Below, one piece after another: positions 2,981-48,018 of a stretch of DNA of 64,000 nt. Each line of letters begins with the position of its first letter. Positions within the stretch are counted from its first letter, which is position 1. The notes beneath the pieces were generated by a model. It saw only the letters and a list, made by a program, of their open reading frames with translations. It had not been told where the DNA came from and did no database searches. The stretch comes from Squalus acanthias (taxonomy: Eukaryota): contig CM059431.1 of assembly GCA_030390025.1 (NCBI GenBank), positions 108,936,001 to 109,000,000 on the forward strand. Direction: 5' to 3'. The position numbers and the translations under genes were made by a program.

Positions 2981-3016
2981 TACAAGCTTTCGGAGCTGTC
3001 GCCCCTTCCTCAGGTA
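2981..3016 (-). ncRNA. Minimal type I hammerhead ribozyme motif (DACH1 sense strand)
   Basis: Exact reverse complement of 3049-3084. Confidence 0.7.
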
Positions 3017-3048
3017 GAGTAACTGTGAGAGAATTACTCACAGTTCTC

Positions 3049-3084
3049 TACCTGAGGAAGGGGCGACAGCTCCGAAAGCTTGTA
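3049..3084 (+). ncRNA. Minimal type I hammerhead ribozyme motif
   Basis: UAC-CUGAGGA-A-GGGGC-GACA-GCUCC-GAAA-GCUU-GUA: core boxes, stem II, palindromic AAGCUU in place of stem III, 3-bp stem I. Confidence 0.7.
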
Positions 3085-5297
3085 ATTTTAAATAAATCTG
3101 TTGAACTATAACCTGGTGTTGTGCGACTTCTCAATTTTGTCCACCCCAGTCCAACGCCGGCATCTCCACATCATAAAAATAAATTGGTTGACTTTGTAAG
3201 AAACCAATTGGTCAACAACGGTCATTAAAAAAACAAGGCTTTTCCAATTTTGACTCCCCAAATCTAGCAGTAATGATAACTCCTTATGTTGAACAAAATA
3301 TTCCTTTTAATCAATCAGCCCTGTTAAGTAAACACTGTGGAATGTACTGGGAATTCAATGAGGCCTAAGCAAACGTTCCCTTTAAATGAACTTTCCCATT
3401 AACTGGACGGCTATTAATTAACTTGTGCCTTTAACCTTGAAATGATAAAAGGTTATAAATCCTTCCCAAGGTAGACAGGAGGCTTTGCTGTAACGCTCTG
3501 TATCAGGGTAAATCCTGCCAGATGTGCAAATTGTCAGGGCAGATACTGTGCGGACAGTAACTAATTTCTCGCAGGAACCAAAGCCATAAGGTATAATGTG
3601 CAAAGTGAAGCCAGGGTTACTGCTGAGGTCCTAAGAGGGGTACCGGGCAGATGATCTCCATGAGACAACAATAGGAAAGCCAGGTGCTGGCAATGGTGTT
3701 GTCATGTTAAAAATACTGCCCAAGAAATAGCAACAGCTTAGTTTATAAGGACAAGAGCTCTTGGAAGAGATATGTGGAAACCTGAGGTGGTATACTAACC
3801 AGAACGCAGCAATCCACTGCAGCCAATTGTATTGTTCCGTTTTTCATCATGCCACTGCCATTGGATGAGTCAGGTCCAGGAAGCTGAGAAGATCCTGTGT
3901 ACCACCACCCCCCCCCCGCCCCGCCCCACCCCCCACCTACCTCTGAAGTAAATTCATCTCCAGCGCACTACATAAAGTGCTTACTATGACCTTTCCTATA
4001 TTTGTGTGTCGTGGTCAACTTTATTTCAAAATGACCTGTATTATTGTAATTAGCTCTGTCTATAACGACATTGGGAGTGAATGTCTGCGGAGGTTCTCAC
4101 ACTTGTTCCGTGTAAGCAGCGTTTTTTTTCCAGGGTTTCCGTGCCTCGCCCTCCAAAGGTACAACGAACGAGCGGGAGAACCCTACCAGAAATTCACCCC
4201 CTTTCTACGTGTTGCTTCGCTCCTCTTTAAGAAGCGAGGAAATATCATTGTTGGGAGTGCATGCTCACCAGCAGATCAGAGTGCATCATCAGCAACGTAG
4301 TGTTCTCTGTTCCTGGAACTCACTGAAAACTGCAGCGTTGAAGACTATTTAATTGAAGCTTCGCAGACTCACAATAACCACCTGAGCCTTTGCACAGTGT
4401 TTTGTTATCCCTGCAGACATTATCTGGAGTGCACATCAATGAAATACTGCGAGAAGGCTAAAAGAGGGAGGGGGAAAACGCAGCACTTTTTAATTGATGA
4501 AGTCACGCCTCCATTTCTCCACAGCTCAGTATGCTTGCTACTACCACAGTGGGTCACTGTTCTAAAGGCGCCGAGATTCTTCAACTTCCTTTTCCTCGCA
4601 ATTTTCTCCCTTCTCGTTCGGAGATTGTTGCCTCTCTGCTGGGGTAGGGTTCAAGGGACAGCAGTCATTTTGCTCAAGTAGCTGTTATTCATTTATGAGC
4701 CTTGACAGTGAGTGGTGGCAGGCTATATGACTGAACTGGACCTTGACTTCAACTGAGCTGTCATGGAGGAAGGTGCTGAACGAGAGGCTAAAAGGTTCCT
4801 CTCAAGACAGGGAGGGGAAACCAGAGGGTCAAAGCACCTCAGATACTCTTGTGCACCTCCAAGCCATAAAGCAGCATTGGTGGATCTCCAACATTCCAGC
4901 CCACACACTCAATTTTGGTCTCCTGTGCCTTCAAATGCAAGTAGTTGTGTGTTTGCCTGATATTGGCAAATGAGGGGAACAAATTGACAGGTTTGTTTTA
5001 GTGGCAGTCATTAATTAATGGATTGACTTGCCTTCATTACATGTCAGACAGTTCTAGATAGTCAACGTTTTGTTGCCAAAAAGTAACATATCTCTGACAA
5101 CACTAACATGGTCGACTAAAGATGGACAACATGCAAACAGGCTAGAAAGGAGTTTATTTTTGCACTTACCCAGGCATCAAAAGAAACGTATATCGATATT
5201 ATATAAATAGGGTCTAGTGTGATATAATCCTGTCACCTGCAGTATCTAGAGCTATACACTGATCACTAGCTGAGCAAAATGCTCAGTAATGTTCAGC

Positions 5298-5828
5298 TAA
5301 GGAAGGATATACTTGCCATAGGGGGAGTGCAACAAAGGTTCAACTAGACTGATTCCTGGGATGAGGGGATTGTCCTATGAGGAGAGATTGATTAGACTAG
5401 GCCTATATTCCCTAGAGTTTAGAAGAATGAGAGGTGATCTCATTGAAACATATCAAATTCTTTAAGGGCTTGACAGGGTAGATGCGGCGAGGTTGTTTCC
5501 CCTGGCTGGGGAGTCCAGAACTAGGGGGCACAGTCTCAGGATAAGGGGTCGGCCATTTAGGACTGAGATGAGAAGACATTTTTTCACTTAAGGCGTTGTG
5601 AATCTTTGGAATTCTCTATCCCAGAGAGCTGTGGAGGCTCAGTTGTTGAGTATATTCAAGACAGAGATCAATAGATTTTTGGATACTAAGGGAATCATGG
5701 GATATGGGGATAGCATGGGAAGGTGGAGTTGAGGTAGAAGATCAGCCATGATCTTATTGAATGGCGGAGCAGGCTCGAAGGGCCGTACGGTCTACTCCTG
5801 GTCCTATTCCTTGTGTTCTTAGGTTCTT
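5298..5828 (+). mobile_element. CR1 LINE 3' fragment
   Basis: agaagaatgagaggtgatctcattgaaaca (RRMRGDLIET), WNSL motif, and 3' UTR gaatggcggagcaggctcgaagggcc with gttctta tail. Confidence 0.9.
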
Positions 5829-5869
5829 AATTCCATCATCGTGAGTTTAAAGCATCAATTAAAAAAAAC

Positions 5870-6130
5870 GTCCCTGTTGTGTACTGAGTTAGGTTTTTTG
5901 ACCTGGGATGGCAATAGATTTATTTGCTTCAGTCTTCCCAAGTTAATGAGGGGAGGGGGGGAATCAGTCAGGGTTCCCACTCCTGATCGCAATTAATGAC
6001 CCATGCTGAAAAGTACTTGTGTGAGGATGATTGCCGAGTACTGGATTGGACTGGTCTGCAATGCCCCCTGTGGAGGAATAGGCTGCTAACACTCGCTCCA
6101 GATGAAAGATGGCCACTTGCGTGACATTCA
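5870..6130 (+). repeat. Old degenerate SINE-like repeat; other copies near 19620-19860(+), 23550-23860(+), 24440-24750(-), 28130-28400(-), 51870-52230(-), 54880-55060(-), 60050-60460(+)
   Basis: Shared core resembling cagggttcccactcctgatcgc...tgctggaaagtg. Confidence 0.6.
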
Positions 6131-8245
6131 CCACTGCTTTCAGCAGAGGAATAAAAGAAAAGAGAAAGCAAGTAGCAGCAAAAATATCAACTTATAACAG
6201 CCCAGTAAATGGGTGCAACTTGTTGGCCAAAGGTTATCAAAAGGTCTCTTGTTCAGCAAGACAGTGAAACACTCGCTCAGAAAAAATGATCAACCCTCCC
6301 ATCGACAAAATGAAACCGTCGTCCAGTGTAGCATCCGTCAGAGAATTATCAACCCTCCGATCAACACAATGAAATGGCTGGAGCATGTGAGATCACTGTA
6401 TGGAGACAAAATATATATAGATTGGCAAATGAATAGCCTATTTATTCTGCCTTAAGCTGACTCTTTGAGGAGGTTCAGCTGCAGAAAGACACGAGCTGTA
6501 AAATGCATCCCTCACGGCTGTCTTTTCCATCCCTATCCCTTTTGGCCTGTGTTGGTTTTCGTTGAAAGTTTCTGCCCCCACCACCGCCTCCCCCCCCCCC
6601 CCCCCCACCCCACTCTGACAGCCTTTTATCCGCTAATATGTGAAACAATTGTAATGTAAAGCATGTGAGTGCGGAGTCTTTGCCACCGGGCTCTCATAAA
6701 TCTTCCCAGTTCCCAGTGAACAACACCAAATATTTGCAGCTGAGGAACATTTGGTCTGGCTTAAATTAACATTTCTCAGCAGTCAGAAGTCATTAGGCTC
6801 TGCCAGTGATTTGAAACCATTTTTCCATTTCAAAAAGCTACAGAGGCTGGCTGTGAAATTTGGTTTGGATGGGCCTGAGGGAGAAGGTGTGTGGGAGAAA
6901 ACCGTTAAAATGGATTTTGTAAGCACTAATGAAAAATCGCAGTAAGGGCCAAGAATCACGTTTAGCAGATTTGTTATTTAGACACTGTTGGCTTGCACAG
7001 CACATATGTAAATAATCAAAGGATTATTTTTGGTTGATACATTCTAAAGCAGGTGTTGAATTACACAGTTTGCATCTTGCCTCTTTTAAACGGTTAATTT
7101 ATCTTATTTCCTATCAGAGTTCATGTTTCCAAGCTGATCTTGTGCTCGCGCTGAATCCGCTCCACATCCGTACTGCATAAGCTTCCCCCACCGGCTCAAA
7201 CCCCTCCTTTCACACTGCCAGCAACATTAGAATGGAAAGCTACAGGGATTTTTTTTTTTGTTATTGAGCGAGTGCCTTCAATCTGCTTAAGAACCATTAC
7301 AATTATCATCATTCATTTCACTGCTTTGGTTTGTTTGCATTCCACCCAGAGCTGGGACAGACAGAAGTGAATAGCAGTTAAGCGTTGCCCGTGTTCCAAC
7401 GGCAGCACACATTCATTTTTAAACAGCGACAGTAATTTTGACAAAACAATCCAGGCCAGAAAAACTGACAAATTGCTTCAACTGCAAAAAAAAACCACGT
7501 CTGGAGTAAAGGGAGAGCCTTAGGAAAATTACTTTTCTTAAATCGTAATCTTCAACAAAAGTAGCTGTTATTTTATCTTTATTTTATCGTGGTAGCCCAT
7601 TCATATCCTGTGGGGCCTTTAGGACTGCTCAATGGCAAACATTAGCAGAGTTTAGATAGACAGGCATAATAGAGGACACAATGGATAATATATGAAGCAG
7701 GAAACAATCTACAACTGTGAGGTATTTTGTCAGGTTTACAAATCAGACTCAAGCCGAGCAATCAGTTCCTATTGAAAATACTGTCTTGAAAATTGCAGAA
7801 ATTCTTCGGCGTTTAACATTGTGAAAGGCGTTATACAAACGCAAATCATTCTTTTTATCTTTTATATAACTTCTCAAAACTTCATCGACATATTTCTCTT
7901 TTCTTTATACCTTTTCGGCAACATTTTCTCTTTAAACTAGGAGGCAACAGAATCTTGGGATGGGTTTAATATTTCCTGGGGAAAGGGGGAGATGGGGAAC
8001 TATCAGCATTTTCCCAAGTTTGACTGGCATGAAGTGCATCTTTGTGTGGGATAGGATTACATTCCCTCTCCCAATAACTCACCACTGTCCCTGCATCCAT
8101 AATAATTGTTGCCCTCACCCAAGTGGGGATAAAGAAAAAAAACACTTGCATTTATATAGCGCCTGTCACAACCTCAAGACGTCCCAAAGCACCTTTACAG
8201 CCAAGGAAGTACCTTCATAGGTAAATTTTACCTATAAGAGAGGTC

Positions 8246-8550
8246 ATGCCCCTGAGATATCTGCGCTCCTCTAATTCTGCCCCCTTGAGCATCCCTGATT
8301 ATAATCGCTCAACCTTTGGTGGCCGTACCTTCTGTTGCCTGGGCCCTAAGCTCTGGAATTCCCTCCCTAAACCTCTCCGCCTCGCTACCTCTCTTTCTTC
8401 CTTTAAGACGCTCCTTAAAACCTACCTCTGACCAAGCTTTTGGTCACCTGCCCTAATTTATCCTTATGTGGATCGGTGTCAAATTTTTTTGTCTTAAAAT
8501 ACGTTTTACTACGTTAAAGGTGCTAAATAAATATAAGTTGTTGTTGTTGT
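8246..8550 (+). mobile_element. L2-clade LINE 3' end
   Basis: Encodes LRSSNS...GGRTFCCLGPKLWNSLPKPLRLATSLSSFKTLLKTYL; (gtt)n tail. Confidence 0.9.
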
Positions 8551-8879
8551 AATGTAGCCCCCTTTGTTATTGAGCTGATGCAAGTGAAGCAGATTTAACA
8601 ATGCTGCTTTGCTTGTGCCAGCCAAGTTACCCTGGCCGTGCACACTGACACTCTAGCATGAGCCCACCCACTTCCCTTGGGCTGGCAGACGCGTGCTGGC
8701 AAGTAGGGGTTCAAAGTCTATACAAGCTAAGTGAGATGGGCACAAACACGGCGCACTGCGGTTTCCTTTGAAACGGAAACACCACTGCCGACGTGCAGAC
8801 ATTGGAGATTGCAGAGTGCAGCAGCCAAGCCTATCTGACATCATCAACTTAGCAACTATTCTAATGCTCTCGGCTGAGC

Positions 8880-9197
8880 AACATAGAATTGCACAGACTT
8901 TACAGCACAGAAACAGGCCATTCGGCCCAATTGGTCTGTGCTGGTGTTGATGCTCCACATGAGCCTCCTCCCACCCTATTTCATCTCATCCTATCAGCAT
9001 ATCCTTCTATTCCTTTCTCTCTCGTGTTTATCCAGCTACCTCTTAAATGCATCTATGCTATTCACTTCAACTATTCCCTGTGGTAGCAAGTTCCACATTC
9101 GAACTACTCTCTGGGGAAGGAAGTTTCTCTTGAATTCCTTATTGGATTTGTTAGTGACGATCTTATATTTATGACCCCTAGTTTTGGACTCCCTCAT
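8880..9197 (-). mobile_element. CR1 LINE 3' fragment
   Basis: Reverse complement of CR1 3' UTR (acagcacagaaacaggccattcggccc) and the RVVRMWNLLP region. Confidence 0.8.
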
Positions 9198-9849
9198 TAC
9201 TTAAATTAACAATTATCAGCAGGACTCATTATTATCCCATATCATTTAAGCAATTATTGTCAGGTCCAAAAACCATATCCATATATCCTCATTAGGATTC
9301 TACCTTCCCAATACTTAAAAAAATTTCTATCATATATATCTCAGTGTTAGAGAGTTAAGGCCATTTTCTCATGGATATCAAAAGGTTGAAGTCCCATTGG
9401 CACGAGCGAGAGGTGGGGAAGAAACACAGGCCCTGAACAGGCAAGAACAGAACAGAGGCCTTGGGGTGAGCAGAGAAATGGCCCAGCTGGAACACAAGCC
9501 AGACAAATGTTGTTAAGGGCCAGGATGGACCTCTCTGGCCCATTTTAACCCCTGCATATGCTGACGCAACAATGAATAGATCTCGATATTGCCATGGGGA
9601 GATTTTGTTTATTCAGTGGATATCCAGCACCTGGTAAGGTCTTGTGTACACTTCCTAAATGAATTCTGGAAGCCCGCATGACGTGATGTTAATTTGCAAG
9701 TGCAAATTGTCATTTTTGATTTCAAATGTGTGAAGTATTGATCCTTCAAGTAACAAAACAAAGAACCCAAATTGTAGAATAAATGAGTATGATTTGTCAT
9801 AAATGTCATCAAAGTTGAGTTTCACAGAGAGAATAGTGAATGTCTGAGA

Positions 9850-10195
9850 ACGATTATGAATACCTAACATACCTGGGAGTAATTTAGGAATGACAAATGG
9901 GTACCTGAGGGTGATTAGAGGGAGAATGGCGGATACACGAGAGTGCTTGGAGAATAACTGATAATACCTGGGAGTGAATAATGGATAGCTAGGAGGAATT
10001 ACAAAATGAATAATGGACATCCAAGAATAATTACAGAGGGTATAATAGTGATTACAGAAGAATTACAGAAGAATTGATATCTAAACCCGATCAGCGCACC
10101 ATTAATGGATATCTTGAAGCAATTACAAAGAGGGTAAGGAGTATTGTATCAGAGAATGATTATACAATAACTAATTATACATAGGAGTGATTATA
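9850..10195. repeat. Degenerate minisatellite-like tract
   Basis: Recurrent tacctgggagt, aataatggat and attacaga units. Confidence 0.45.
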
Positions 10196-10518: not shown

Positions 10519-12090
10519 GAAGAAGATGCTGCCATAGACAGTGAAGGAGGAGGTGGAGGAGATACTGGATGGGATAAAAATTGATAAAGAGGAGGTACTA
10601 GAAAGGCTGGCTGTACATAAAGTAGATAAGTCATCAGGACCTGATGGGATGCATCCTAGGACGCTGAGGGAAGTGAAGGAAGAAATCGCGGAGGTACTGG
10701 CCATAATCTTCCAAACCTCCTTAGAAACATTGCTGGTACCAGAGGACTGGCGAATTGCAAATGTTACACCCTTGTTCAAAAAAGGTGTAATGATAAATCC
10801 AGCAACTACAGGCCAGTCAGTTTAACCTCGGCAGTGGGGAAGCTTTTAGAAACAATAATCAGGGACAAAATTAACAGTCACTTGGACAAGTGTGGATTAA
10901 TTAAGGAAAGCCAGCATGGATTTGTTAAAGGCAAATCGTGTTTAACCAACTTGATCGAGTTTTTTGATGAGGTAACAGAGAGGGTTGATGAGGGCAATGC
11001 GGGTGACGTGGTGTACATGGATTTCCAAAAGGCGTTCGACAAAGTGCCACATAATAGGCTTGCCAGCAAAGTTGAAGCCCATTGAATAAAAGTTACAGTG
11101 GCAGCATGGATACGAAATTGGCTAAGTGACAGGAAACAGAGAGTAGTGGTGAACGGTTGGTTTTTGGACTGGAGGAAGGTATACAGTGGTGATCCCCAGG
11201 GGTCGGTTCTAGGACCGACTTATATATACTAATGACTTGGATGTGGGTGTACAGGGCACAATTTCAAAATTTGCAGATGACACAAAACTTGGAAGTATAG
11301 TGAACAGTGGAGGATGATAGTGATAGACTTCAAGAGAACATAGACAGGCTGATGGAATGGGTGCATGAACAGAGAGACTTAGGGGTATATGTGCACAAAT
11401 CGTTGAAGGTGGCAGGGCAGGTTGAGAAAGCAGTTAAAAAAGCATACGGGATCCTGGGCTTCATGAATAGAGGTATAGTGTACAAAAGCAAGGAAGTTAT
11501 GATGAATCTGTGTAAAACACTGGTTCGGCCTCAACTGGAGTATTGTGTGCAATTCTGGTCACCGCACTTTAGGAAGGGTGTGATGGCCTTAGAGAGGGTG
11601 CAGAAAGATTTACGAGAATGGTTCCAAGGATGAGGGACTTCAGTTACATGGATAGACTGGTGAAGCTGGGATTGATCTCCTTAGAGCAGAGAAGATTGAG
11701 AGGAGATTTGATAGAGGTGTTCAAAATCATGAGGGGTCTGGACAGAGTAGATAGAGGGAAACTGTTCCCATTGGCAGAAGGGTTGAGAACCAGAGGACAC
11801 AGATTTAAGGCAATTGGCAGAAGAACCAAAGGCGACATGAGGAAAAACTTTTTTACGCAGCGAGTGGTTATGATCTGGAATGCACTGCCTGAAAGGGTGG
11901 TGGAGGCAGACTCAATCGTGGCTTTCAAAAGGGAGTTGGATAAGTACCTGAAGGAAAAAAAATTTGCAGGGCTACGGGGAAAGGGCGGGGGCGTGGGACT
12001 AACTGAAGTGCTCTTGCAGAGAGCCGGCATGGGCTCGACGGGCTGAATGGCCTCCTACTGTGCTTTAACCATTCTATGATTCTATGATTC
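10519..12090 (+). mobile_element. CR1 LINE, 5'-truncated, disrupted RT ORF2
   Basis: ORFs with KSSGPDGMHP, QHGFVKGKSCLTNL, YMDFQKAFDKVPH and LVRPQLEYCVQFWSP; attctatg tail; premature stop and an internal deletion near 11360. Confidence 0.96.
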
Positions 12091-13010
12091 TGTGATCTCA
12101 AATCTAAAATGAAAGGACAAACTAGAAAGCATTGAAGATTGTTGTTGTAGTTGTGAAATCCAAGGAACCCAAGAGTTAAATTAAATGTTATAGCCTCTTA
12201 CAATATATAACATTAAAGTGCTGACGAGAGACAGCTTCAGCAATGATGTGTATCTGAAATACTCCAGAATTTTTTAAAGCCATATTGCAAATGTCATATA
12301 ATAAACTGCTGAACATGTCACATTCTCTGGATACACCAGGATATATTATGTAAAGAAGAGACACACTTTACATAATAATGAATAGTAAATGGTTGGTTGC
12401 GCTGAAAATATGAGTAGGAAAAAAATGGATGTGTAATGATCAGGTATATGATTTAAAAAGATGGGCTGCAACCAAAAATATAAAGGCATTGATAGCAAAA
12501 AGATTATACCTCATTCAGAGGCGTGAGAAATAAATGTAAAATATGAAGTAGAGTGAGGACTTTTCAATATAGGAGGTCTTTTGCCCAGTTGTTCCTGTTG
12601 AGATGCAAATCAATGCTGCTTAATCATACAAAAGCTGGTGACAATTACTTTGAATGTCTTTCCACTGACATAGCACTTAAATGTTAACAACGAGAGCAGT
12701 GAACAAAAGGGATGCTCTTTGGAAACCTGAAACTTTAGAAAGGAAGAGGGGTCCTGCGCAAACTGGGAATAAATGGGATTATCACAGTAGACAATTTTTT
12801 TTAAATTGAAGTATAAAGTATTAAAGCAGCACAGTCTTCAAGGATAAGACCCAGAAAGTGTCATGTATTATTTTTTTATTGCAGTGATCTCAGCCTTCCT
12901 TTCTTCACTTACCCATGACACGATGATAGATTTAACATGATTTACTTTATAGTTTTTGTGTGTCTGTAAACAAACAAAAAAGATTTGAAACACCCTTTTT
13001 AGTGAAGGTG

Positions 13011-15833: not shown

Positions 15834-17519
15834 CTCTCTCTTAGGCAGTCCCTCGGAACCGAGGATGACTTGCTTCCACACTAAAAATTAGTTCTCAGGT
15901 GACTGATGAGTCCAATGCGGGACCTACAGTCTCTGTCACAGGTGGGGCAGACGGTGGTTGAAGGGGCGGGTGGGTGGGGTGCTTGGGTTGACGTGCGCTC
16001 CTTGCGCTGCCTGCATTTGTCTTCCGCTTGCTCCTGGCGAAGAGGCTTGAGGTGTTCGCCGCCTTCCCGGATGCTTCTCCTCCACTTTGTGCGGTCTTGG
16101 GCCAGGGATTCCCAGGTGTCAGTGGGGATGTTGCACTTTTTCAAGGAGGCTTTGAGGGTGTCCTTGAAACATTTCCTCTGCCCACCTGGGGCTCTCTTGC
16201 TGTGTCGGAGCTCCGAGTAGAGCGCTTGTTTTGGTAGTCTCGTATCGGGCATGCGGACGATGTGACCCGTCCATTGGAGCTGATCGAGCGTGGTCAAAGC
16301 TTCGATGCTGGGGATGTTGGCCTGAGCGAGAACACTGATGTTGGTGCGCCTATTCTGCCAATGGATTTGCAGGATCTTGCGGAGGCAGCGTTGGTGGTAC
16401 CTCTCCAGTGCTTTGAGGTGCCTGCTGTAAATGGTCCATGTCTCTGAGGCATACAGCAGGGCGGGTATCACTGCTGCTCTGTAGACCATGAGCTTAGTGC
16501 CGGGTTTGAGGTCCTGGTCTTCAAACACTCTCTTCCTCAGGCGACTGAAGGCTGCACTGGCACACTGAAGGCGGTGTTGGACTTCGTCGTCGACGTCTGC
16601 CCTTGTTGACAGTAGGCTCCCGAGGTATGGAAAGTGGTCCACGTTGTCCAAGGCCTTGTCGTGGATTTTGATAATCGGGGAGCAGTACTGTGTGGCGGGG
16701 CAGGTTGGTAGAGGACCTTTGTCTTACGGATGTTTAGTGTAAGGCCTATGCTCTCATACGCTTCAGTGAAGGTGTTGACGATGGTTTGGAGTTCGACCTC
16801 TGAGTGAGCGCCGATACAAGCGTCATCTGCATACTGTAATTCGATGACAGAGGATGGGACAACCTTGGATCTGGACTGGAGGCGACGGAGGTTGAACAGT
16901 TTTTCGTTTGTTCTGCAAATTAGCTCCACTCCAGCGGGGAGCTTATTGAAGTTGAGATGGAGCATTGCAGCAAGGAAGATCGAGAAGAGCATTGGTGCGA
17001 TGACACAGTCTTGCTTGACCCTGGTCCGCACGTGAATTGGGTCTGTGGTGGAACCGTTGGTCAGGATCATGGCTTGCATGTCGTCGTGAAGCAGGCGGAG
17101 GATGGTGACAAACTTTTGAGGGCAGCCGAATTTGGGGAGGACACTCCATAATCCCTCATGGTTGACAGTGTCGAAAGCCTTTGTGAGATCAAAGAAGGCC
17201 ATGTACAGCGGTTGGTGCTGTTCCCTGCATTTCTCTTGTAATTGACGCGCGGTGAAGATCATGTCCGTTGTGCCCCTTAGTGGGCGGAATCCGCGTTGCG
17301 ACTCTGGGAGGAGTTCTTCGGCCACTGGGAGAAGGCGATTGAGGAGGATTCTTGCGATGACTTTCCCTGTGGCAGACAGCAGGGAAACTCCTCTGTAATT
17401 ACCGCAATCGGACTTGTCACCTTTCTTGAAGATGGTCACAATTACGGCGTCTCGGTTCCACCACAGACCCAATTCACGTACGGACCGGGGTGAAGCAAGG
17501 CTGTGTCATGGCACCAACT
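15834..17519 (-). mobile_element. RTE-clade LINE, 5'-truncated, frameshifted RT with C-terminal zinc finger
   Basis: NYRGVSLLS, FFDLTKAFDTV, LQYADD, CPTCDRDCRSRIGLISH. 12-bp TSD ccaccttggagt at 15822-15833 and 17520-17531. Confidence 0.95.
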
Positions 17520-26449: not shown

Positions 26450-26812
26450 TTTGGATCAATGCATTAATGAGTTTACTAACTGCCTCCACTGCTATGCTAC
26501 TTTGGAAGATCCTTGCAATTAATTTGATGTTGTGCACATTTCAGTTTAAGAATTTTGCATTCAGCACAGACTTTTCTTAGTTCACTTTTTTTTTCCTGAA
26601 TTCAAAAAGTGACTCTTCAATACATTTATTCCCAAATTCACTTATGTCTTGTAAAAGAATATTCCTCATGAGGGATCAACATCTTCATTAGTTGTACTGG
26701 GAAGCTCCACTTCCCCATGGAGTGGGCTAAATGTATTTCCTCGTAAAGTGTTCTTTTGTGAGAGCTCCAAAATGAATTAGTTGTTACATGTGCTGATAAA
26801 AGAAATAAGTAT

Positions 26813-27544
26813 GATAGCAAAATACTGCGGATGCTGGAAAATTGAAACAACAACAGAAAACGCTGGAAAAACTCAGCAGACCAGGCAACATCCATGGAGA
26901 GAGAAACAGAGTTAATGTTTCAGGTCGAAAACCCTTCGTCAGAACTGAGAAAAAAGCAGGAAATGAAACAGATAAAAAAGCAAGTGGGAGGCTGGGGGGA
27001 GGAATAAAAGAACAAAAGGGGTGGTCTATGGTAAGTAGAGACATTAAGAGATGCTCAAGGCAAGACGAGATGGTAATAGGACAGGTTAAGAAACAAAAGG
27101 TGGCTCAGAAGTGTGAAGTGTGAAATGCTGGCAGAATGAGAGACAGCTGCCGTGGGGGGAGAGAGAGAAAAAAAAAGGGAAAAGGCACAAACCAAAAGGG
27201 TGGATAAAATATATATATGGTGGGGGCCGAGGTTATGATCTGAAATTGTTGAACTCGATATTGCGTCCGGAAGGCTGTAAAGTGCCTAATCGGAAGATGA
27301 GGTGCTGTTCCTCGAGCTTACGCTGAGCTTCCGTGGAACAATGCAAGAGGCCGAGGACGGTGAGGTCTGAGTGGGCGTGGAGCGGTGAATTAAAATGACA
27401 AGCGACCGGAAGCTCGGGGTCACCCTTACGGACTGAACGGAGGTGTTCCGCAAAGCGGTCACCCAATCTGCGTTTGGTCTCCTCAATGTAGAGGAGACTC
27501 TGTTTCTCTCTCCATGGATGTTGCCTGGCCTGCTGAGTTCTTCC
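26813..27544 (-). mobile_element. Short Penelope-like insertion with GIY-YIG C-terminus and inverted terminal-repeat fragment
   Basis: Encodes LGDRFAEHLRSV...RKLEEQHLIFRLGTLQP. 27497-27544 is an inverted copy of about 26865-26912. Duplication aaagaaataagtatgat at 26799-26815 and 27545-27561. Confidence 0.92.
26910..26946 (-). ncRNA. Minimal hammerhead ribozyme motif, palindrome mutated
   Basis: AGUU-CUGACGA-A-GGGUU-UUC-GACCU-GAAA-CAUU-AACU. Confidence 0.55.
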
Positions 27545-28993
27545 AAAGAAATAAGTATGATCTGTTAAGTATTTACCAATGTCTTCTGATAAGTGCTATG
27601 TTTCACACACTAAGAGAGCTTTCGAAGGTTGCAAACGGTCACAATCTGAAGACTTTGGGGCAAATTCTGTCACGGCTCCTGGTACAGAAAATGACCACAA
27701 AATTGAGAGAAACCTGAATCAGGCGTGCTGAACTTTGCACCCAATTCTCTGATCAGTGCTTCAATCAAAGGAGGAGCTGCTTCAACCCTTCTCTCAAAAA
27801 ATTACCCTGCTTGTGTTTGGTGTTGTCCGTAATATGTCTTTACTGCATGGTGTTAGGGCACTGGTAAGTAATCATTGTTTCCCTACATTACAAACATTGA
27901 CTGCACTTCAAAAGTACTTAATTGGCTGTGAATCACTTTGGGACACCTGAGGTCGTGAAAGGTGCTATAGAAATGCGTGTTCTTTCTTTCTAATTTAGAA
28001 GATTAGCTAAGGAATTAATTCCTTTGATTTTACTTTTCATGTTGAAGGAAAATTTCTGATTAAATCTCGTCTCTGGGCAACAACAAAAAAAAAGCAACTG
28101 CCTTGTGCTAGATACAGTTCCATGACTGTTGGCAACACTCGCGCATCTTCACATGTGGCAAGTTTCAAATGTGAACTCAAGTCATGAGTCTCAACAGGCT
28201 TTTAGGCTAGTTAGGAGGTGGCAGGGAGGGGCAGGGAGAAGCTGGTGTGGGGGGGGGGGTGCATTGAGCAGGACGACATGATCCATCCTAGCCAGGATCA
28301 GCTAGCCTAGCACAGACTGGGAAACCAAACAAGTGCAGGACCTTCCTGGCCCGTATAGCCCAGTTCTATATAAGAACAGTGCATTTGCCCATTAAGTCAT
28401 TGGGTTGTTTTTTTTGCAAAAAATGTATGTAATTAAGTATTGAGAACTATCAAGATCTTAAAAAAGTTCTTAAGAAATGGAATCCATAACCTTTAACTGG
28501 AAAACTTGATACAGTAAATGTTAGAATGAGGAAATGGATAATCAGCAAATTAATGAAACGTGTTTGATATAACAGAAATCTAGCTGCATTGTAAACAATG
28601 GACATAGAATCTCCCAGTATTTGTAAATAGATTTTGTTCTTGAGTAAATTTGCAATTGGCATCAACACTGCCAACATAAAACTGGAATAAAAAACTCCCA
28701 TGTTAATTTTGAACAAGATATAACAAACAACAGAAAGAGCATGTGATTTTAAGGCAGTATAAAGGATTTTAATCTCAGGGTCTGTAAATTGCTTATAGAC
28801 TCCTCAGTCTTTGCTCTCAGTGTTTATCCGGTGATCTGAATACCTTCATTACGTTCATCCCAAAAATCCATAATCCTCTGTTTATTCTGTGGGTTTCAGT
28901 GAGAATTTTCAGTCCAAACTAAGTGTTAATTCATAAAACTGAAAGTAGAAATAATACTTCACACTTAAAATAATATTTTTCCATGGAAACCTT

Positions 28994-37571: not shown

Positions 37572-38667
37572 TTTGTTTCTTGTTGCGATTTTTGAAGTCC
37601 TGGATCCAGTCACAGTATACACGAGGTCTCCTATTGTCATTGAACTGTGCTTTCTCATGGAGCAGAGCATCAGAAACTTTGGCACAATTACAGGTCATTT
37701 CACTCACCCATAGATTGAGCACTGTCTTCACGTTGTGCTTGCACAGATGGCTATGGTCAAGCTGGCTGTGTTTGCAGTTGAGTCTAACCACTTCATCCGT
37801 TCTCTCCAGACGCCACAGCAAGTCAATGGCCCTAGCTGGAGGTCAAATTCAAACTGTGTACGTGATGAAAAATCTTGCGGTACTTTCGATTAGGTTCCAG
37901 ATGCACAGCTGACATTTCGGCACAATGGATCAAGTCTGCTTAACACCTATTAAGTCGGCTCCCTCTTCCTGGAAACCCGGCCAAATCTCCAGGTTTAAAT
38001 GCTGTGTTCAAGAAGGAACTTAATTGCAAACTCCTAGGCAATCAATAGAAGAGCTTCTTTTGGTCCATTGATTAAATTGTGAGGTGCATTTGTGGCAAAA
38101 GGGGAAAATGGGAATGAGGTCTCCTGCCTACACTAAACCCATTATTCAGCACCCTGAAAAGGGAGTCAACCAAATGGCAGGCATGTCTCCTTGTTCAGCC
38201 AGGAACATCACGCTCATTAAGCTTGGCAGGGTTATCTAGAGCAGTTTCAAATTTCCTATTGCCAGGTTATCACCTTGGAGCCACCTTGGCCCCAAAGAGA
38301 CCTTCCTTACATTCCCCCGAAGGAGGGGTGTCATTGATTGGGCATCAGCCAGTTGACAAATGCGGGGTTGAGTCCTCACTAGATGGACAGCAGGTACCAA
38401 GAGTTCCTCGTGAGCAGAATGGTGATCAACACTTCTCACCATTAAATGTGGAAAGTGCATTTCCACCATCCTACTGCTCATCGGAACAGCAAAATATCAG
38501 GTGTAAAAGGAGCGAAAATTACTTTCAGAACGCTCTGAGACCACTCTTTGTGATTGAATACCACATTGATGAATACATTGAACAAGATGGGTGACAATTA
38601 AAAAGACAAGATTTGGTTATGGACATAGTAACAATTTAAATGCTAAATAATTCCGCGATTATATCAA

Positions 38668-38782
38668 AAGGTCATCGACCTGAAACGTGAACTCTGTTTC
38701 TCTCTCCACAGATGCTGCCTGACCTGCTGAATTCTTCTGTTTTTATTTCAGATTTCCAGCTTCTGCAGTATTTTGGTTTTGT
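38668..38782 (+). mobile_element. Solo truncated Penelope terminal-repeat fragment
   Basis: ggtcatcgacctgaaacgtgaactctgtttctctctccacagatgctgcctgacctgctga; starts inside the hammerhead motif. Confidence 0.8.
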
Positions 38783-41697: not shown

Positions 41698-41955
41698 TAG
41701 AATCATACGGCACAGAAGGAGGTCATTCGGCCCATTATGACTGTGCCAGCTTGTTGAAAGAGCTATCCAATTAGTCCCACTCCCCTGTTAATTCCCCATA
41801 GCCATGTACATTTTTCCATTTCAAGTATTTATCCAATTTCCTTTTGAAAGTTACTGTTGAATCTGTTTCCATCACCCATTCAGGCAGTGCATTCCAAATC
41901 ATCACAACTCGCTGTTTAAAAAGATTTCTCCTCATCGTTCCTCTGGTTCTTTTGT
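41698..41955 (-). mobile_element. CR1 LINE 3' fragment
   Basis: Reverse complement of CR1 3' end (ggcacagaaggaggtcattcggccc...tcaggcagtgcattcca). Confidence 0.85.
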
Positions 41956-43469
41956 TCTTGCTCTAAGAAGGATGCTGAATGAGCATCACACTGTGGTGGC
42001 ATTTCGGAAGACCTGAGACAGACAGCGGAGGTTGAGGCAGCGTCCAATACAGTACCACCTAGAGTGAGTGGTGACGCCATGAACATCTACATCCATCCCA
42101 CTTGAGGTAGAGAAGCCTCCAGACTAGTCAGTGCATCCAAAGTAGATGTTTTGACCAATGGCGTTCAGGCCTTGGGGGACCATTTGGAGAGAATAATTGC
42201 AACTGGCTTCCGAGACCTTTGGGGAGCCATCTCTCAGGGTCTGCGGGACCTAGCTGATACCATGAGGTTTGCTCTCCCTCTGATCAGTGGGCACTGAGAT
42301 TCAAGATCCCTCACAAGTGGTTACGATCTGCCATCATTTCTCTTGATGACCCTCGTGCAACTTTTTCAGCCAGTGCTGCTCATGCTGTTGGCAGGATAGG
42401 AGACCAGGCTGCCCACACACCTGCCATGGTAAGATGGCCTGCTGAAGAGTTCTCTGGGAACTCAGACACCCAGAGATGATGGCCTCCCAAGAGGCTCATG
42501 ATACCATAGTGCATTCAAAGCCTGTGAACTCAACCACTTCCTGGCTGGATAAGTCATTCAGCTAACTTACCCTGCTTCTCTACCGGCTTCAGTTAAGTCA
42601 GTGCAATTCTGGCATAAATGGCTGAATTTCCGGGACCTCAGGTTTTGCCCTCATTATCCTGTCATTTGCATATCTGCACCAGTTTGTAGGTGGGTGTGGG
42701 GGGCAGTGGGTGCATCTTCTGCTAGCACCTAGATCCACCAGAATTTAGTGTGTATTTTAGAACAGTTTAAATCTGGTGTATCTGATTTATATCCCAAATT
42801 CCAGTCCCCTACGCCAAAATGACATCACTTTTGCCCCCGAACAATAAAGCAATTTCGGGTCCCAACACTACCCGCCTTCAAACTTTGGATTCTGTAGATA
42901 CCTGATGAGAGTAAAGCTCATTTGAGTTGGATTTGTGCACCTTATTATTTTTCCTCTGGCTTGATTGAGTGGGAAACAGCATATGAAGACAGGGCAAAAC
43001 TAGAAAGATACATGCATGAGAAAGCTGGCAAGAGTAGAAATGAATCATGATAAGTCAATGCATTGATTACCCCGAGTGCTGTGATCATACCTAACAATAC
43101 GAACTTTCACAACAGTGATGGGGACTTATAGCAATGCTTTCAAAACTGTAATGGGCACATAACTTACAAGTGACTTGGGGAAGAAATTAGTCTTACAGTC
43201 TAATGTCATCATTAGAGTGAGTTCTGGAACAAAGCTGCTGCCTTGCTTTCAACAGCACTGTCTCATTTATGTGCATGGGCAATTCCAAGACCAGAGGTTG
43301 CAAGAAGATTACCCCACATACTTCCATCTACCATCCCAGTGCCATTTCTCTAAATTGTCCTCTCCAGTACAAAACAACATCAACTGTGTCTGTGTTGTGT
43401 GCGCACTCACCGTACAGATTTTATTATTTTCTTTAAAGATGCAGCAGAACCCCTCGCAGCATTCGATCT

Positions 43470-44512
43470 ATCCACGCCCCCCCTCCTCTTTCTCATCCGC
43501 ATGCTGCCACTTGGCAACATTATCCACAGATATCAGGTCAACTTCCACCTGCCTGCTGATAACACCCAGCCCCCATCTCCCCACCACCTCTCAGGATCCC
43601 TCCAATGCTTCTGTGTTGTCTGGCTGCTTGTCCAATTTCCAGTCTTGGATAAGCTGCAATTTCCTCCAGTTACACATGGGAAGACCAAAGCCATTATTCT
43701 CGACCACTGCCGTAAACTATTTGACCTCAAGCTGAGCTTCCGACCACATATCCTCTCCATCACAAAGACTGCCTACTTCCACCTCCAGAACATTGCTTGC
43801 CTCCATTCCGTCTTACCCCATCTTCGGTGGAAAACCTCAGCCGTGCCTTTATCAACTCGACTATTCCAATATTCTCCTCGCCAGTCTCCCATCCTACACT
43901 CTGTGTAAACTTTAGCTCATCAAAAACGCTGCTGCCTGTATCATCTCCCACGCCAAGTCTCGCCAATTTTGAATATTAAGGGAATCAAGGGATATGGGGA
44001 TAGTTCAGGAAAGTGGAGATGAGGTAGAAGATCAGCCATGACCTTATTGAATGGCGGAGCAGGCTCGAAGGGCCAAATGGCCTACTCCTGCTCCTATGTC
44101 TTATGTTCTTATGTCTCGCTCATCCATGACCTCTGTTCTTGGTGACCTACATTGGCTCTCAGTCCTTCAGCGCTTATAATTTAAAATTGTCATCCTTTTG
44201 TTTATATCCCTTCATGGCCTCGCCCTTTTCTATTTTTATAACCTCCTCCAGCTTTGCAACAACACCCCTCACCCACTCCCCCCTTCTCCTCTGACTCTGA
44301 CCTATTTCGCAGCCCCTCCCTCCCTTTGCCCCACCATTGGCAGCTATGCTTTCAGTGGCCTAGGCTCCACACACTTGAATTCCCTCACTAAACCCTCTGC
44401 CTCTTCAATTCCTACCAATACTTTAAAAAAAAATCACTTTGAACAAGCTTTTGATCACTCCTCGTAATATCTCTTTCTTTGACTATTGTTTGGTTTTAAT
44501 TATGCTTCTTTG
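43470..44512 (+). mobile_element. Degenerate L2 LINE fragment interrupted by a CR1 3' end (about 43965-44113)
   Basis: MLPLGNIIHRYQVNFHLPADNTQ (decayed YADDTQ motif) and LSFRPHILSITKTAYFHLQNIA. L2 sequence resumes after the CR1 tail ttcttatgt. Confidence 0.85.
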
Positions 44513-44962
44513 AAGCACCTGGGGTTTCTATTCCTATGTTCAGTTTCCTATCTCGATGCAAGTTGTTGTTGCTGAAATAAGGTCACACTGCAAAAGTAAA
44601 ACATTTTGAACAATTTCTGCTGTATTTTACATTGACTGGAGATGGTGCTGACTTTGCTGCAACGTGGCATTTTTAAATTGTCTTCTACGCAAGCCAAGTG
44701 CACAGTCCCATGCATCAGGTCACAGAAAGTACCGAAAACATTGCATTAAGAAGGTACTGATGAATGTTTGAGATTGTAAGCTTATCCAGCAGTTTCACAA
44801 ACTCAACCCAGAAGTGGCGATGCCAAGGGGCAATCGGTCATGTGAGGTGATTCAAGTTTGCCCGTGTAAATGCAGCTTCTGACCCTTGTCACAAATTATT
44901 AAACGAACATACAGAAAGGCAAAACTCAGCAGGCCAGGCAACATCCGTGGAGAGAGAAACAG

Positions 44963-44999
44963 AGTTAACGTTTCAGGTCGAAGACCCTTCGTCAGAACT
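44963..44999 (-). ncRNA. Minimal type I hammerhead ribozyme motif (DACH1 sense strand)
   Basis: AGUU-CUGACGA-A-GGGUC-UUC-GACCU-GAAA-CGUU-AACU, with palindromic AACGUU. Confidence 0.72.
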
Positions 45000-45248
45000 G
45001 AGAAAAAAGCAGGAAATGAAACAGATAAAAAAAAGCAAGTGGGAGGCTGGGGGGAGGAATAACTATGGTAAGTAGAGACATTAAGAGATGCTCAAGGCAA
45101 GACGAGATGGTAATGGGACAGGTTAAGAAACAAAAGGTGGCTCAGAAGTGTGAAGTGTGAAGTGTGAAATGCTGGCAGAATGAGAGACAGCTGCCGTGAG
45201 GAAGAGAGAGAAAAAAAAAGGGAAAAGGCACGAACCAAAAGGGTGGAT

Positions 45249-45286
<38 letters not shown>

Positions 45287-45405
45287 GTAGGGGCCGAGGT
45301 TATGATCTGAAATTGTTGAACTCGATATTGAGTCCGGAAGGCTGTAAAGTGCCTAATCGGAATATGAGGTGCTGTTTTATCTGTTTCATTTCCTGCTTTT
45401 TTCTC

Positions 45406-45442
45406 AGTTCTGACGAAGGGTCTTCGACCTGAAACGTTAACT
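45406..45442 (+). ncRNA. Minimal type I hammerhead ribozyme motif
   Basis: Same sequence as 44963-44999 on the opposite strand. Confidence 0.72.
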
Positions 45443-45797
45443 CTGTTTCTCTCTCCACGGATGTTGCCTGGCCTGCTGAGTTTTTCCAGCGTTTTCTGTT
45501 GTTGTTTCAATTTTCCAGCATCCGCAGTATTTTGCTATCGTACAGAAAGGCAACTTTGCATCTCCTCTCAAACAGACACAATTAGATCTTTCCACTTGGT
45601 CTTCTGCTTGACTGAATTTAATTCTCCTGTGCAACAGAACCAGTTTATCCTGATGTCGGTATAGTATATCACCTACAAAAATTCAAGTTTCAATACAGCC
45701 AAAGAGAAAAAGCAATGTGTCACGCTCTCAGTTGACACAGTATAAAAGCTCATTTCTCTGCAAGTACCTCTGTGACTTGGAGAACTGTTGATTGTAT

Positions 45798-45952
45798 GGG
45801 AGAAAAATCCAACTTGGGCAGGGGGCACAAGATGGGCAGTAGCGGATTGACCGCCCATCATCGCTGCGCAGGACAATCGGGTGGGGTGTACAGCGGGCAG
45901 CCGGAGCGCTGTCGCCTGTTTTGCATCCCTGATGAAGTTGAATTTCATCCCC
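45798..45952. mobile_element. Short palindromic MITE
   Basis: Imperfect TIR gggagaaaaatccaactt / aagttgaatttcatcccc, flanked by TAT on both sides. Confidence 0.6.
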
Positions 45953-46070
45953 TATTTGTTTATGTCACTGTGATTAAATAGAACATTGAATTGTAAATGT
46001 TACACCCTTGTTCAAAAAAGGGTGCAAGGATAAACCCAGCAACTACGGGCTAGTCAGCTTAACCTCGGTA

Positions 46071-48018
46071 CAATAGCAAAATACTGCGGATGCTGGAAAT
46101 CTGAAATAACAACAGAAAATGCTGGAAGCACTCAGCAGGCAAGGCAGCATCCGTGGAGAGAGAAACAGAGTGAACGTTTCAGGTCTGTGACCCTTCATCA
46201 GAACTGGAAAAGGTTAGAGATGTAACAGATTTTAAACAGGTGCAGAGAAGGGAAAGGGGGGGGAGGGGAGGAAGGAATTGAAGGAACAATCTGTGCTAGG
46301 GTAGGAGGCAGGAGAGATTAAACGTTGCAAATGGGGATGGCAGAATCATCAACAGCCACCTAAAAAATGGGGGCAGGAGTTATAGTCTGAAATTGCTGAA
46401 CTCAATATCGAGTCCAGAAGGTTGTAAAGTGCCTAATCGAAAGATGAGGTGCTGTTCCTCGAGCTTACGTTGAGCTTCATTGGAACGATGTAAGAGGCCG
46501 AGGACAGAGAGGTCAGAGTGGGAGTGGAGCGGAGAATTAAAGTGACAGGCGACCGGAAGCTCGGGGTCCCCCTTACGGACTGAACGGAGGTGTTCTGCAA
46601 AGCGGTCGCCCAATCTGCGTTTGGTCTCCCCAATGTAGAGGAGACCGCATCGTGAGCAGCGAATACAGTATACTAAATTGCGAGAAGTACAAGTAAATCG
46701 CTGTTTCACCTGGAAGGGGTGTTTGGGGCCCTGGACAGTGGGAAGGGAGGAGGTAACAAAGCAGGTGTTGCATTTCCTGCGCTTGCATGGGAAGGTGCCG
46801 TGGGGAGGGGTGGGGCTGTTGGGGGTGATTGAGGAGTGGACCAGGGTGTTGCGGAGGGAGCAGTCCCTTCGGAATGCTAAAAGGGGAGGTGAGGGGAAGA
46901 TGCGTTTGGTGGTGGGATCACTTTGGAGGTGGCTGAAATGGCAGAGGATGATCCATTGAATGTGAAGACTGGTGGGGTGCAAGGTGAGGACAAGGGGAAC
47001 CCTATCGTGGTTCTGGGAGGGAGGGGAAGGGGTGAAAGCAGAAGTGCGGGAAATGGAACGGACATGGTCGAGGACCATGTCAACCACGGTAATGGGGAAT
47101 CCTCGGTTGAGGAAAAAGGAAGACATATCGGGAGCACTGGTATGGAAGGTGGCATCATCAGAACAGATGCGGCGGAGACGGAGAAACTGGGAGAATGGAA
47201 TAGAGTCCTTACAGGAGGCGGGGTGGGAGGAAGTGTAGTCCAGGTAGCTGTAGGAGTCGGTGGGCTTATTGTGAATGTTTGTCGATAGCTTATCGCCAGA
47301 AATGGAGACAGAGAAATCAAGGAAGGGATGGGAAGAGTTGGAGATGGACCATGTGAAGGTGAGGGAAGGGTGGAAATTGGAAGCAAAGTGAATGAAATTT
47401 TCTAGTTCAGGGCGAGAGCAGGAAACGGCACCGATACAGTCATCGATGTACTGGAAAAAGAGGTGAGGGAGGGGACCTGAGTAGGACTGGAACAAAGAAT
47501 GTTCCACATATCCCACGAAAAGGCAGGCATAGCTAGGGCCCATGTGGGTTCCCATAGCAATACCTTTAATTTGGAGGAAGTGAGTGGAGTCAAAGGAGAA
47601 GTTGTTCAATGTGAGAACAAGTTCAGCCAGGCGGAGGAGGGTGGTGGTGGATGGTGACTGGTTGGGCCTCTGATCAAGGAAGAAGTGGAGCACCCTCAGG
47701 CCGTCCTGGTGGGGGATGGAGGTGTAGAGGGATTGAACGTCCATAGTGAAGAGGAGACGGTTGGGGCCAGGAAACTGGAAACTGTTAAAGTGGCGGAGGG
47801 CATCGGAAGAGTCGCGAATTTAGGTGGGAAGAGACTGGACAAGGGGAGAAAAAATAGAGTCGAGATAGGAAGAGATAAGTTCCGTGGGGCAAGAAGAAGC
47901 TGAAACGATGGGTCTACCAGGGCAGTCCTGTTTGTGGATCTTGGGAAGGAGGTAGAAGTGGACTGTGCGGGGTTGGGGGACTATGAGGTTGGAGGGAAGA
48001 TCTCCAGAGGAGATGAGG
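46071..48018 (-). mobile_element. Penelope-like retroelement, 5'-truncated: RT, GIY-YIG endonuclease and 3' terminal repeat
   Basis: FYLLPKIHK...GRPIVS, MDVQSLYTSIP, GIAMGTHMGPSYA, YIDD, VYCIRCSRCGLLYIGETKR. 454-aa open frame at 46380-47744. Flanking tcggta duplication. Confidence 0.97.
46169..46205 (-). ncRNA. Minimal hammerhead ribozyme motif in the Penelope 3' repeat
   Basis: AGUU-CUGAUGA-A-GGGUC-ACA-GACCU-GAAA-CGUU-CACU; one stem I mismatch. Confidence 0.65.

What the first reader, a model, noticed from the sequence alone, without database searches (positions are those of the whole stretch)
2981..46205. Six minimal hammerhead ribozyme motifs in one DACH1 intron, four on the pre-mRNA strand
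Seen: motifs at 2981-3016(-), 3049-3084(+), 26910-26946(-), 44963-44999(-), 45406-45442(+) and 46169-46205(-). Two dissimilar terminal-repeat families share one architecture: short stem I, CUGANGA plus an extra A, stem II, GAAA, then a 6-nt palindrome instead of stem III (AAGCUU vs AACGUU). Stem I is UAC/GUA in one family and AGUU/AACU in the other, so structure is kept while sequence differs. Known: Penelope-like elements carry minimal type I hammerheads proposed to act as dimers, and domesticated intronic hammerheads exist in amniotes. Inference: the same-strand copies at 44963 and 46169 are 1.2 kb apart and share AACGUU, so they could form a double hammerhead and cut nascent DACH1 RNA.
Basis: partly seen in the sequence, partly recalled or inferred. 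Interest (0 to 1): 0.72.

Follow-up and report, generated by a model that had tools for sequence, protein, structure and literature searches.

The report
Penelope transposon hammerheads in DACH1 intron
The six tiny hammerhead-ribozyme motifs are real but are end pieces of four ordinary jumping-gene insertions, present in tens of thousands of copies in this genome, and the pair proposed to cut DACH1 RNA is predicted to be locked up by a mirror-image copy lying between them, so they are likely passengers rather than a DACH1 control device.

Summary
All six motifs are at the stated coordinates, in one ~84-kb intron of a minus-strand dachshund gene, best read as DACH1. They are not six independent features. 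They belong to four Penelope-like element (PLE) insertions, each between target-site duplications; one carries an RT plus GIY-YIG frame. Strict patterns give 16,120 and 5,072 copies genome-wide. Density in DACH1 (32 in 497 kb) does not differ significantly from a genome grid (16 in 400 kb, p=0.15), and there is no strand bias (18 sense, 14 antisense). The proposed 44963/46169 double hammerhead is predicted to fail: a 108-of-108 antisense arm of the same insertion is transcribed between them, pairs all 37 motif bases, and the dimer costs +78 kcal/mol versus +15 for a control pair. Both insertions tested, including the 44963 one, are absent in 3 of 3 relatives. 26910 has lost its palindrome. Minimal hammerheads in PLE ends are published (PMC4209133), and this scan has noted them before on other DNA (413 findings). 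Cleavage itself was not testable. Ordinary.

The parts
2934..3173 (.). Insertion A: 240-bp fold-back PLE stump (family A), two head-to-head arms of about 100 bp, 36-nt tail on the right arm only
   Evidence: 13-bp target-site duplication at 2921-2933 and 3174-3186; arms nearly identical; empty site in 3 of 3 relatives; 91% identical over 137 nt to the 3' end of a copy that follows a GIY-YIG frame in L022
2981..3016 (-). Minimal hammerhead, family A, sense to DACH1; predicted fully paired with 3049-3084
3049..3084 (+). Minimal hammerhead, family A, antisense to DACH1
26816..27544 (-). Insertion B: 5'-truncated family B PLE (end of the GIY-YIG frame, 3' repeat, tail) with a 49-nt inverted arm at 27497-27545
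   Evidence: 14-17-bp duplication at 26799-26815 and 27545-27561; tblastn 71% to ORF residues 361-478 at 27239-27538
26910..26946 (-). Minimal hammerhead, family B, palindrome broken (AACAUU)
44923..45540 (.). Insertion C: 618-bp family B PLE stump with an inverted arm; holds both 44963(-) and 45406(+); tail on the right arm only
   Evidence: 13-bp duplication at 44910-44922 and 45541-45553; arms identical over 108 of 108 nt; empty site in 3 of 3 relatives
44963..44999 (-). Minimal hammerhead, family B, intact, sense to DACH1; predicted paired 37 of 37 nt with 45406-45442
45406..45442 (+). Minimal hammerhead, family B, antisense to DACH1; in the pre-mRNA it is the exact complement of 44963-44999 and is made first
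46071..48018 (-). Insertion D: 1.95-kb 5'-truncated family B PLE, inserted into a copy of another LINE-type repeat
   Evidence: 6-bp duplication at 46065-46070 and 48019-48024; flanks 45988-46068 and 48019-48557 match the contiguous repeat at 10752-11361
46383..47819 (-). 479-codon stop-free stretch: RT, CX4CxxC linker, C-terminal GIY-YIG endonuclease
   Evidence: Pfam RVT_1 E=6e-5 and GIY-YIG E=6e-4, both below the curated cut-offs
46169..46205 (-). Minimal hammerhead, family B, sense to DACH1, U.C mismatch at the first stem I pair
59103..59237 (-). Dachshund (DACH1) exon whose donor opens the ~84-kb intron
   Evidence: exon identity recognised from recalled DACH peptide motifs
60707..60842 (-). 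Preceding dachshund (DACH1) exon

Best explanation
The six motifs are the minimal hammerheads carried in the terminal repeats of four separate Penelope-like retrotransposon insertions from two high-copy families, and they are likely inert passengers in the DACH1 intron. Shown: insertion boundaries, target-site duplications, one-sided tails, inverted arms, an RT plus GIY-YIG frame, copy numbers, absence of two insertions in relatives. Inferred: the element's RT copied its RNA into AT-rich target sites, often leaving a 5'-truncated copy with an inverted arm, so one event can place a hammerhead on each strand. The motif is kept by selection on the active parent elements, not at this locus. Predicted: when DACH1 is transcribed, the sense copies at 2981 and 44963 fold into 100-bp-scale hairpins with their own antisense arms; 46169 can pair with the same antisense arm (86% over 168 nt); whichever copy is left free has no partner; 26910 lacks the palindrome needed for a homodimer. 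The likely effect on the pre-mRNA is double-stranded hairpins, not cleavage.
For: Target-site duplications around all four insertions. RT, linker and GIY-YIG in insertion D; family A ends follow a related GIY-YIG frame in L022. 16,120 and 5,072 exact-pattern copies, 0 for the reversed control patterns; grid estimate 40 per Mb, 95% interval 23-65. DACH1 32 motifs in 497 kb vs grid 16 in 400 kb, p=0.15; sense 18 of 32, p=0.60; with the DACH2 stretch 21 of 39, p=0.75. Stem I pairing probability 0.0 for 44963, 46169 and 2981; dimer cost +77.8 vs +15.0 kcal/mol for a control pair. Empty sites with one copy of the duplication in runs X6, X8, X16 for insertions A and C, flanks about 93-99% alike. Core positions depart from the majority in 6 of 352 cells vs 139 of 1568 downstream in 32 family B copies, which fits selection in the parent elements. 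Architecture matches PMC4209133 and PMC8557442.
Against: No cleavage or RNA-end data could be obtained, so inertness is predicted, not shown. Folding is an equilibrium model of 0.4-1.4-kb RNAs without proteins. Insertions B and D were not tested in relatives. Counted as motifs, the window is borderline high (p=0.046) and DACH1 is 1.6 times the grid rate, though not significantly. In the dimer geometry the core that would cut at 44963 has a fully paired stem I; the 46169 mismatch only affects the other core. A lineage-specific insertion can still have an effect on its host gene.
Confidence: 0.9

Rival explanations
1. One reading: 44963 and 46169 form an intramolecular double hammerhead in nascent DACH1 RNA and cut it, affecting splicing or output.
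For: Both are on the pre-mRNA strand, 1.2 kb apart, with intact cores and the same palindrome. The dimer can be drawn as a nested structure with one fully paired core. Minimal hammerheads cleave weakly as dimers in vitro (PMC4209133, results section).
Against: An exact antisense copy lies between them and is transcribed before 44963; dimer cost +78 kcal/mol. Insertion C is absent in 3 of 3 relatives. In vitro activity is low even for tandem constructs (PMC4209133), and the anole PLE hammerhead did not cut without the element's protein (PMC11167929). No enrichment or strand bias in DACH1.
Confidence: 0.03
2. Low-level, incidental cleavage: sense-strand intronic copies occasionally cut host pre-mRNA, in trans with PLE transcripts or helped by PLE protein where the element is active. 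It would be a genome-wide side effect, not specific to DACH1.
For: About 150,000 descriptor-passing motifs are estimated genome-wide. A better same-strand pair exists in DACH1 intron 1, 818 nt apart, both intact, dimer cost only +15 kcal/mol. Protein assistance is reported for an anole PLE hammerhead (PMC11167929).
Against: No depletion of sense copies in DACH1 or DACH2 introns (21 of 39), although the sample is small. At least 92% of family B copies carrying the post-cleavage sequence run through the cut site, so the parent RNA was mostly copied uncut. PMC11167929 found no RNA-seq reads ending at the cut site in anole.
Confidence: 0.06
3. The motifs are chance matches to a short consensus.
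For: The loose core pattern is not above chance; no Rfam hammerhead match.
Against: 6 vs 0.08 expected with the full descriptor; two coherent families with over 21,000 exact-pattern copies; position at PLE ends as published.
Confidence: 0.01

Closest known systems
Minimal hammerheads (min-HHR) in pLTRs of metazoan Penelope-like elements (Cervera and De la Pena 2014, PMC4209133)
   Same: Type I core, no helix III, palindromic 15.2-16.2, extra base between 9 and 10.1, short helix I, several families per genome, mostly in truncated copies; close pairs on opposite strands 100-700 bp apart are described there.
   Different: Family B has G.U or A-U at 10.1-11.1 instead of the conserved G-C; stem II is 5 bp. 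Sharks are not named in the parts of the text read (parts 1-3 of 4; figures and supplement not seen).
EN+ Penelope-like elements of the Neptune/Nematis type (Craig et al. 2021, PMC8557442)
   Same: RT with C-terminal GIY-YIG, CX2-5CxxC linker, 5' truncation, inverted 5'-truncated copy, 30-40-bp tail at one end only, variable target-site duplication.
   Different: No full-length copy in the window; clade not placed on a tree; the family B one-sided extension in insertion C is longer (about 58 nt).
Anole Poseidon element PAc and its protein-assisted hammerhead (Frangieh et al. 2024, PMC11167929)
   Same: Hammerhead in the terminal repeat with about 100-130 nt beyond it up to the tail; AT-rich targets; uncut RNA as the main template, which fits.
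   Different: Different clade (Penelope/Poseidon lacks the linker present here); no biochemistry exists for these shark-type families in the papers read.
Domesticated intronic hammerheads of amniotes (RECK, CTCL, DTNB; as summarised in PMC6155905)
   Same: Type I hammerhead on the sense strand of an intron.
   Different: Those are conserved at orthologous sites across amniotes; these are high-copy, still inside recognisable transposon ends, and the two insertions tested are absent in close relatives.
Animal non-LTR retrozymes (bioRxiv 10.64898/2026.07.22.740005)
   Same: PLE-related hammerhead repeats; one chondrichthyan genome was among those sampled.
   Different: Retrozymes are head-to-tail tandem units; the copies here are single or inverted PLE ends with ORF remnants.

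Membership tests
min-HHR of metazoan PLEs | Catalytic core CUGANGA ... GAAA ... UH | tested here: met
   6 of 6
min-HHR of metazoan PLEs | [quoted passage not shown] | tested here: met
   A in 6 of 6
min-HHR of metazoan PLEs | Palindromic 15.2-16.2 in place of helix III | tested here: met
   5 of 6; 26910 has CA instead of CG
min-HHR of metazoan PLEs | G10.1-C11.1 pair | tested here: inconclusive
   Met in the 2 family A copies; the 4 family B copies have G.U, and other family B copies have A-U
min-HHR of metazoan PLEs | Short helix I (4-5 bp) | tested here: met
   4 bp in 3 of 4 family B copies, first pair broken in 46169; 3 bp in both family A copies, 4 bp in most other family A copies
min-HHR of metazoan PLEs | Located in the terminal repeat of a PLE | tested here: met
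   Family B lies 3' of the RT/GIY-YIG frame in insertions B, C, D; family A end follows a GIY-YIG frame in L022
min-HHR of metazoan PLEs | Self-cleavage as a dimer | not testable with these tools
   Needs an in vitro assay
EN+ PLE, Neptune/Nematis type | RT followed by C-terminal GIY-YIG endonuclease | tested here: met
   Both Pfam hits in order, each below the curated cut-off in this truncated frame
EN+ PLE, Neptune/Nematis type | CX2-5CxxC linker between RT and EN | tested here: met
   CX4CxxC in insertion D and in the family A frame of L022; feature as defined in PMC8557442
EN+ PLE, Neptune/Nematis type | Inverted 5'-truncated copy, one-sided tail, target-site duplication | tested here: met
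   Inverted arms in A, B, C; duplications in all four; tails at one end
EN+ PLE, Neptune/Nematis type | Placement in the clade on an RT tree | not tested
   No reference PLE proteins were fetched
Domesticated intronic hammerhead (amniote type) | Conserved at the orthologous intronic site across species | tested here: not met
   Insertions A and C absent in 3 of 3 relatives; B and D not tested
Domesticated intronic hammerhead (amniote type) | Able to fold into the ribozyme in the host pre-mRNA | tested here: not met
   Predicted stem I probability at most 0.0001 for all 4 sense copies; a prediction only
Non-LTR retrozyme | Head-to-tail tandem units each with a hammerhead | tested here: not met
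   Self-comparison shows inverted arms and dispersed copies, no tandem units at these motifs

The most novel reading that the evidence does not exclude
With an estimated 150,000 intact-looking hammerheads in this genome, same-strand pairs that lack an antisense blocker cut host pre-mRNAs in cells where Penelope protein is made. Transposon debris would then be a genome-wide source of co-transcriptional intron cleavage in cartilaginous fishes.
Probability: 0.06. Interest if true: 0.6.

Novelty: new member of a known kind. Interest (0 to 1): 0.1.

Why it matters
As a DACH1 finding it does not matter: the motifs are young transposon ends at background density. The general lesson is practical. In genomes rich in Penelope-like elements almost any long intron holds several minimal hammerheads, so a cluster needs a density control, an empty-site check in relatives and a check for antisense arms before it is read as regulation. 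If sense-strand pairs did cut host pre-mRNA in vivo, that would bear on the open question of what PLE hammerheads do and how the conserved amniote intronic hammerheads arose; nothing found here points that way.

Tried and rejected
Rfam scan: no hammerhead family at E<=1, two unrelated weak hits; read as a limit of models that expect helix III, not as absence. DNA search of the own genome with the repeat returned nothing because common words are skipped; pattern counts were used instead. Sequencing-run search: no RNA holder listed; all four runs laid were contigs, which cannot show RNA ends, so expression and cleavage stay untested. Run X5 (same organism, another sample) has contigs entering insertions A and C by only 21-24 nt past the duplication, too short to count as bridging. 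Joints skipping insertion D come from other copies of the surrounding multi-copy repeat and say nothing about this site. Idea that copies start at the cut site and so record in vivo cleavage: the inverted arm of insertion B starts 1 nt after it, and 5 of 70 family B hits start within -2..+3 (8 within -4..+3), but genome counts fall only 8% across the site (20,558 to 18,873) against 18% over the adjacent four bases (24,929 to 20,558). The two steps are not like for like (three degenerate positions vs none), so this is only an upper bound of about 8%; rejected as a main route. The core-conservation test was uninformative for family A (7 copies, p=1.0). Lunse et al. 2016 (dimer cleavage) is not held; I saw only its title and a review's summary. 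Two chance-like descriptor hits in DACH1 (window-relative 241479 and 439567) were dropped before the count of 32 (34 rows in the gene). A search for DACH1 + hammerhead + ribozyme gave 2 lncRNA reviews, listing only; Penelope + shark + genome + hammerhead ribozyme gave 1 review where 'shark' refers to the motif's shape.
Full report
Observation. The six motifs are present at the stated coordinates and strands. Each has CUGANGA, an extra A, a 5-bp stem II, GAAA and a UU cleavage end. A descriptor requiring core, stem II and GAAA-NN-UH finds exactly these six in the window, against a mean of 0.08 in 100 shuffles. The loose core alone is not significant and Rfam finds no hammerhead. Two details differ from the finding: 26910 reads AACAUU, so it has no palindrome, and 46169 has a U.C mismatch at the first stem I pair.

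Host gene. The window is G000:C7:108936001-109000000 in a 3.7-Gb genome. A Ski/Sno/Dac domain lies on the minus strand 396 kb to the right. It scores 199 bits against PDB 1L8R 'Dachshund', while the paralogue on C6 scores 191; that 1L8R is human DACH1 is recalled, so DACH1 rather than DACH2 is likely but rests on this margin. Exons were traced with recalled peptide motifs from that domain through the window (60707-60842, 59103-59237) to an exon about 24.9 kb left of it. All six motifs lie in that ~84-kb intron, four on the pre-mRNA strand.

Anatomy. The six motifs belong to four insertions, each between duplicated target sites: A 2934-3173 (13 bp), B 26816-27544 (14-17 bp), C 44923-45540 (13 bp) and D 46071-48018 (6 bp, inside another LINE-type repeat). 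A is a fold-back holding 2981(-) and 3049(+). C holds 44963(-) and 45406(+), with arms identical over 108 of 108 nt. D carries a 479-codon frame with RT and C-terminal GIY-YIG, both below Pfam cut-offs, and a CX4CxxC linker. B and C keep the end of the same frame. Family A ends follow a related GIY-YIG frame elsewhere (L022). Inverted truncated copies, a tail at one end and the linker are the described marks of Neptune/Nematis-type PLEs (PMC8557442, passages).

Is the cluster special? Strict patterns match 16,120 (family B) and 5,072 (family A) places, with 0 for the reversed controls. The descriptor gives 16 motifs in 400 kb of evenly spaced stretches, about 150,000 genome-wide (interval 23-65 per Mb), 7 in 200 kb of DACH2, and 32 in 497 kb of DACH1 after dropping 2 chance-like rows. 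DACH1 is 1.6 times the grid, p=0.15. The intron holds 6 against 5.3 expected from the rest of the gene, p=0.43. Against the grid the window is borderline as motifs (p=0.046) and ordinary as insertions (4 vs 1.9, p=0.13). Sense copies are 18 of 32 in DACH1 and 21 of 39 with DACH2 (p=0.60 and 0.75).

The proposed double hammerhead. In the pre-mRNA the order is 46169 (sense), 45406 (antisense), 44963 (sense). Folding predicts that all 37 bases of the 44963 motif pair with 45406-45442, and stem I probability is 0.0 for both sense copies. Forcing the dimer costs +77.8 kcal/mol; the same constraint on a pair in DACH1 intron 1 that has no antisense arm costs +15.0. The antisense arm can also pair with the 46169 end (86% over 168 nt; duplex -244 vs -226 kcal/mol), so by inference one copy is trapped and the other has no partner. 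In fairness, the dimer geometry is possible on paper and the core cutting at 44963 would have a full stem I. The 2981 copy is likewise fully paired in its hairpin, and 26910 lacks the palindrome. These are equilibrium predictions without proteins.

Conservation. Contigs from three other organisms (runs X6, X8, X16; two studies) run straight across the sites of insertions C and A with one copy of the duplication, flanks about 93-99% alike. B and D were not tested. Across 32 family B copies the core departs from the majority in 6 of 352 cells against 139 of 1568 downstream (selection by alignment may inflate this), which fits selection in the parent elements. Family A gave no signal with 7 copies.

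Does the parent ribozyme cut? At least 92% of family B copies that carry the sequence after the cut site run through it. Short copies pile up instead at the 5' edge of the motif: 18 of 70 hits start at -39 to -29, where stem I begins at -33. That fits copying of an uncut RNA whose 5' end lies just before the hammerhead, an idea taken from earlier notes of this scan and only partly tested here. It agrees with PMC11167929 (parts 1-2 of 4 read), where uncut RNA was the main template and cleavage needed the element's protein.

Comparison and verdict. Minimal hammerheads in PLE repeats, their extra base, palindrome, many families, opposite-strand pairs and low dimer activity are all in PMC4209133 (parts 1-3 of 4 read). 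Family B departs from that consensus only at the 10.1-11.1 pair. The amniote intronic hammerheads are defined by conservation (PMC6155905, passages), which fails here for both insertions tested. The 2026 retrozyme preprint (parts 1-2 of 5 read) concerns tandem units, which these are not. I found no paper on these families in sharks or on DACH1 hammerheads, but this scan lists 413 similar findings in at least 29 genomes and none near this place. Verdict: real motifs, new members of a known kind, likely passengers; interest 0.1.

Noticed in passing
   Followed up: partly
loci L009-L128 and window: Family B short copies start in a cluster at the 5' edge of the hammerhead (18 of 70 hits at -39 to -29 from the cut site), not at the cut site.
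   Followed up: partly
window 27497-27545: The inverted arm of insertion B begins 1 nt after the predicted cut site; one other copy (L010:4624) does the same. Genome counts do not show this to be common.
   Followed up: yes
window 38667-38781 (+): A seventh, older family B stump that begins inside stem II and so lacks the CUGANGA box; 8-bp duplicated flank.
   Followed up: partly
window about 46100-46125 (-): Insertion D carries a pyrimidine tract ending in CAG on the DACH1 sense strand downstream of the hammerhead; it looks like a splice acceptor and could act as a cryptic one. The AG is changed in insertion B.
   Followed up: no
window 2934-3136 and 44923-45482: Both fold-back insertions would form 100-bp-scale double-stranded hairpins in the pre-mRNA, possible substrates for A-to-I editing (inference).
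   Followed up: no
L049 (G000:C7:109200051-109203432): A longer family B copy in a DACH1 intron with inverted hammerheads 3.4 kb apart and ORF pieces matching residues 1-478 of insertion D.
   Followed up: no
window 15884-17505 (-); 10752-12099 and 48019-49405 (+): RT-like frames of other LINE-type repeats; families not assigned by any search.
   Followed up: no
window 2997-3068: Weak Rfam mir-216 match (E=0.49, far below threshold) is just the fold-back centre of insertion A.
   Followed up: yes
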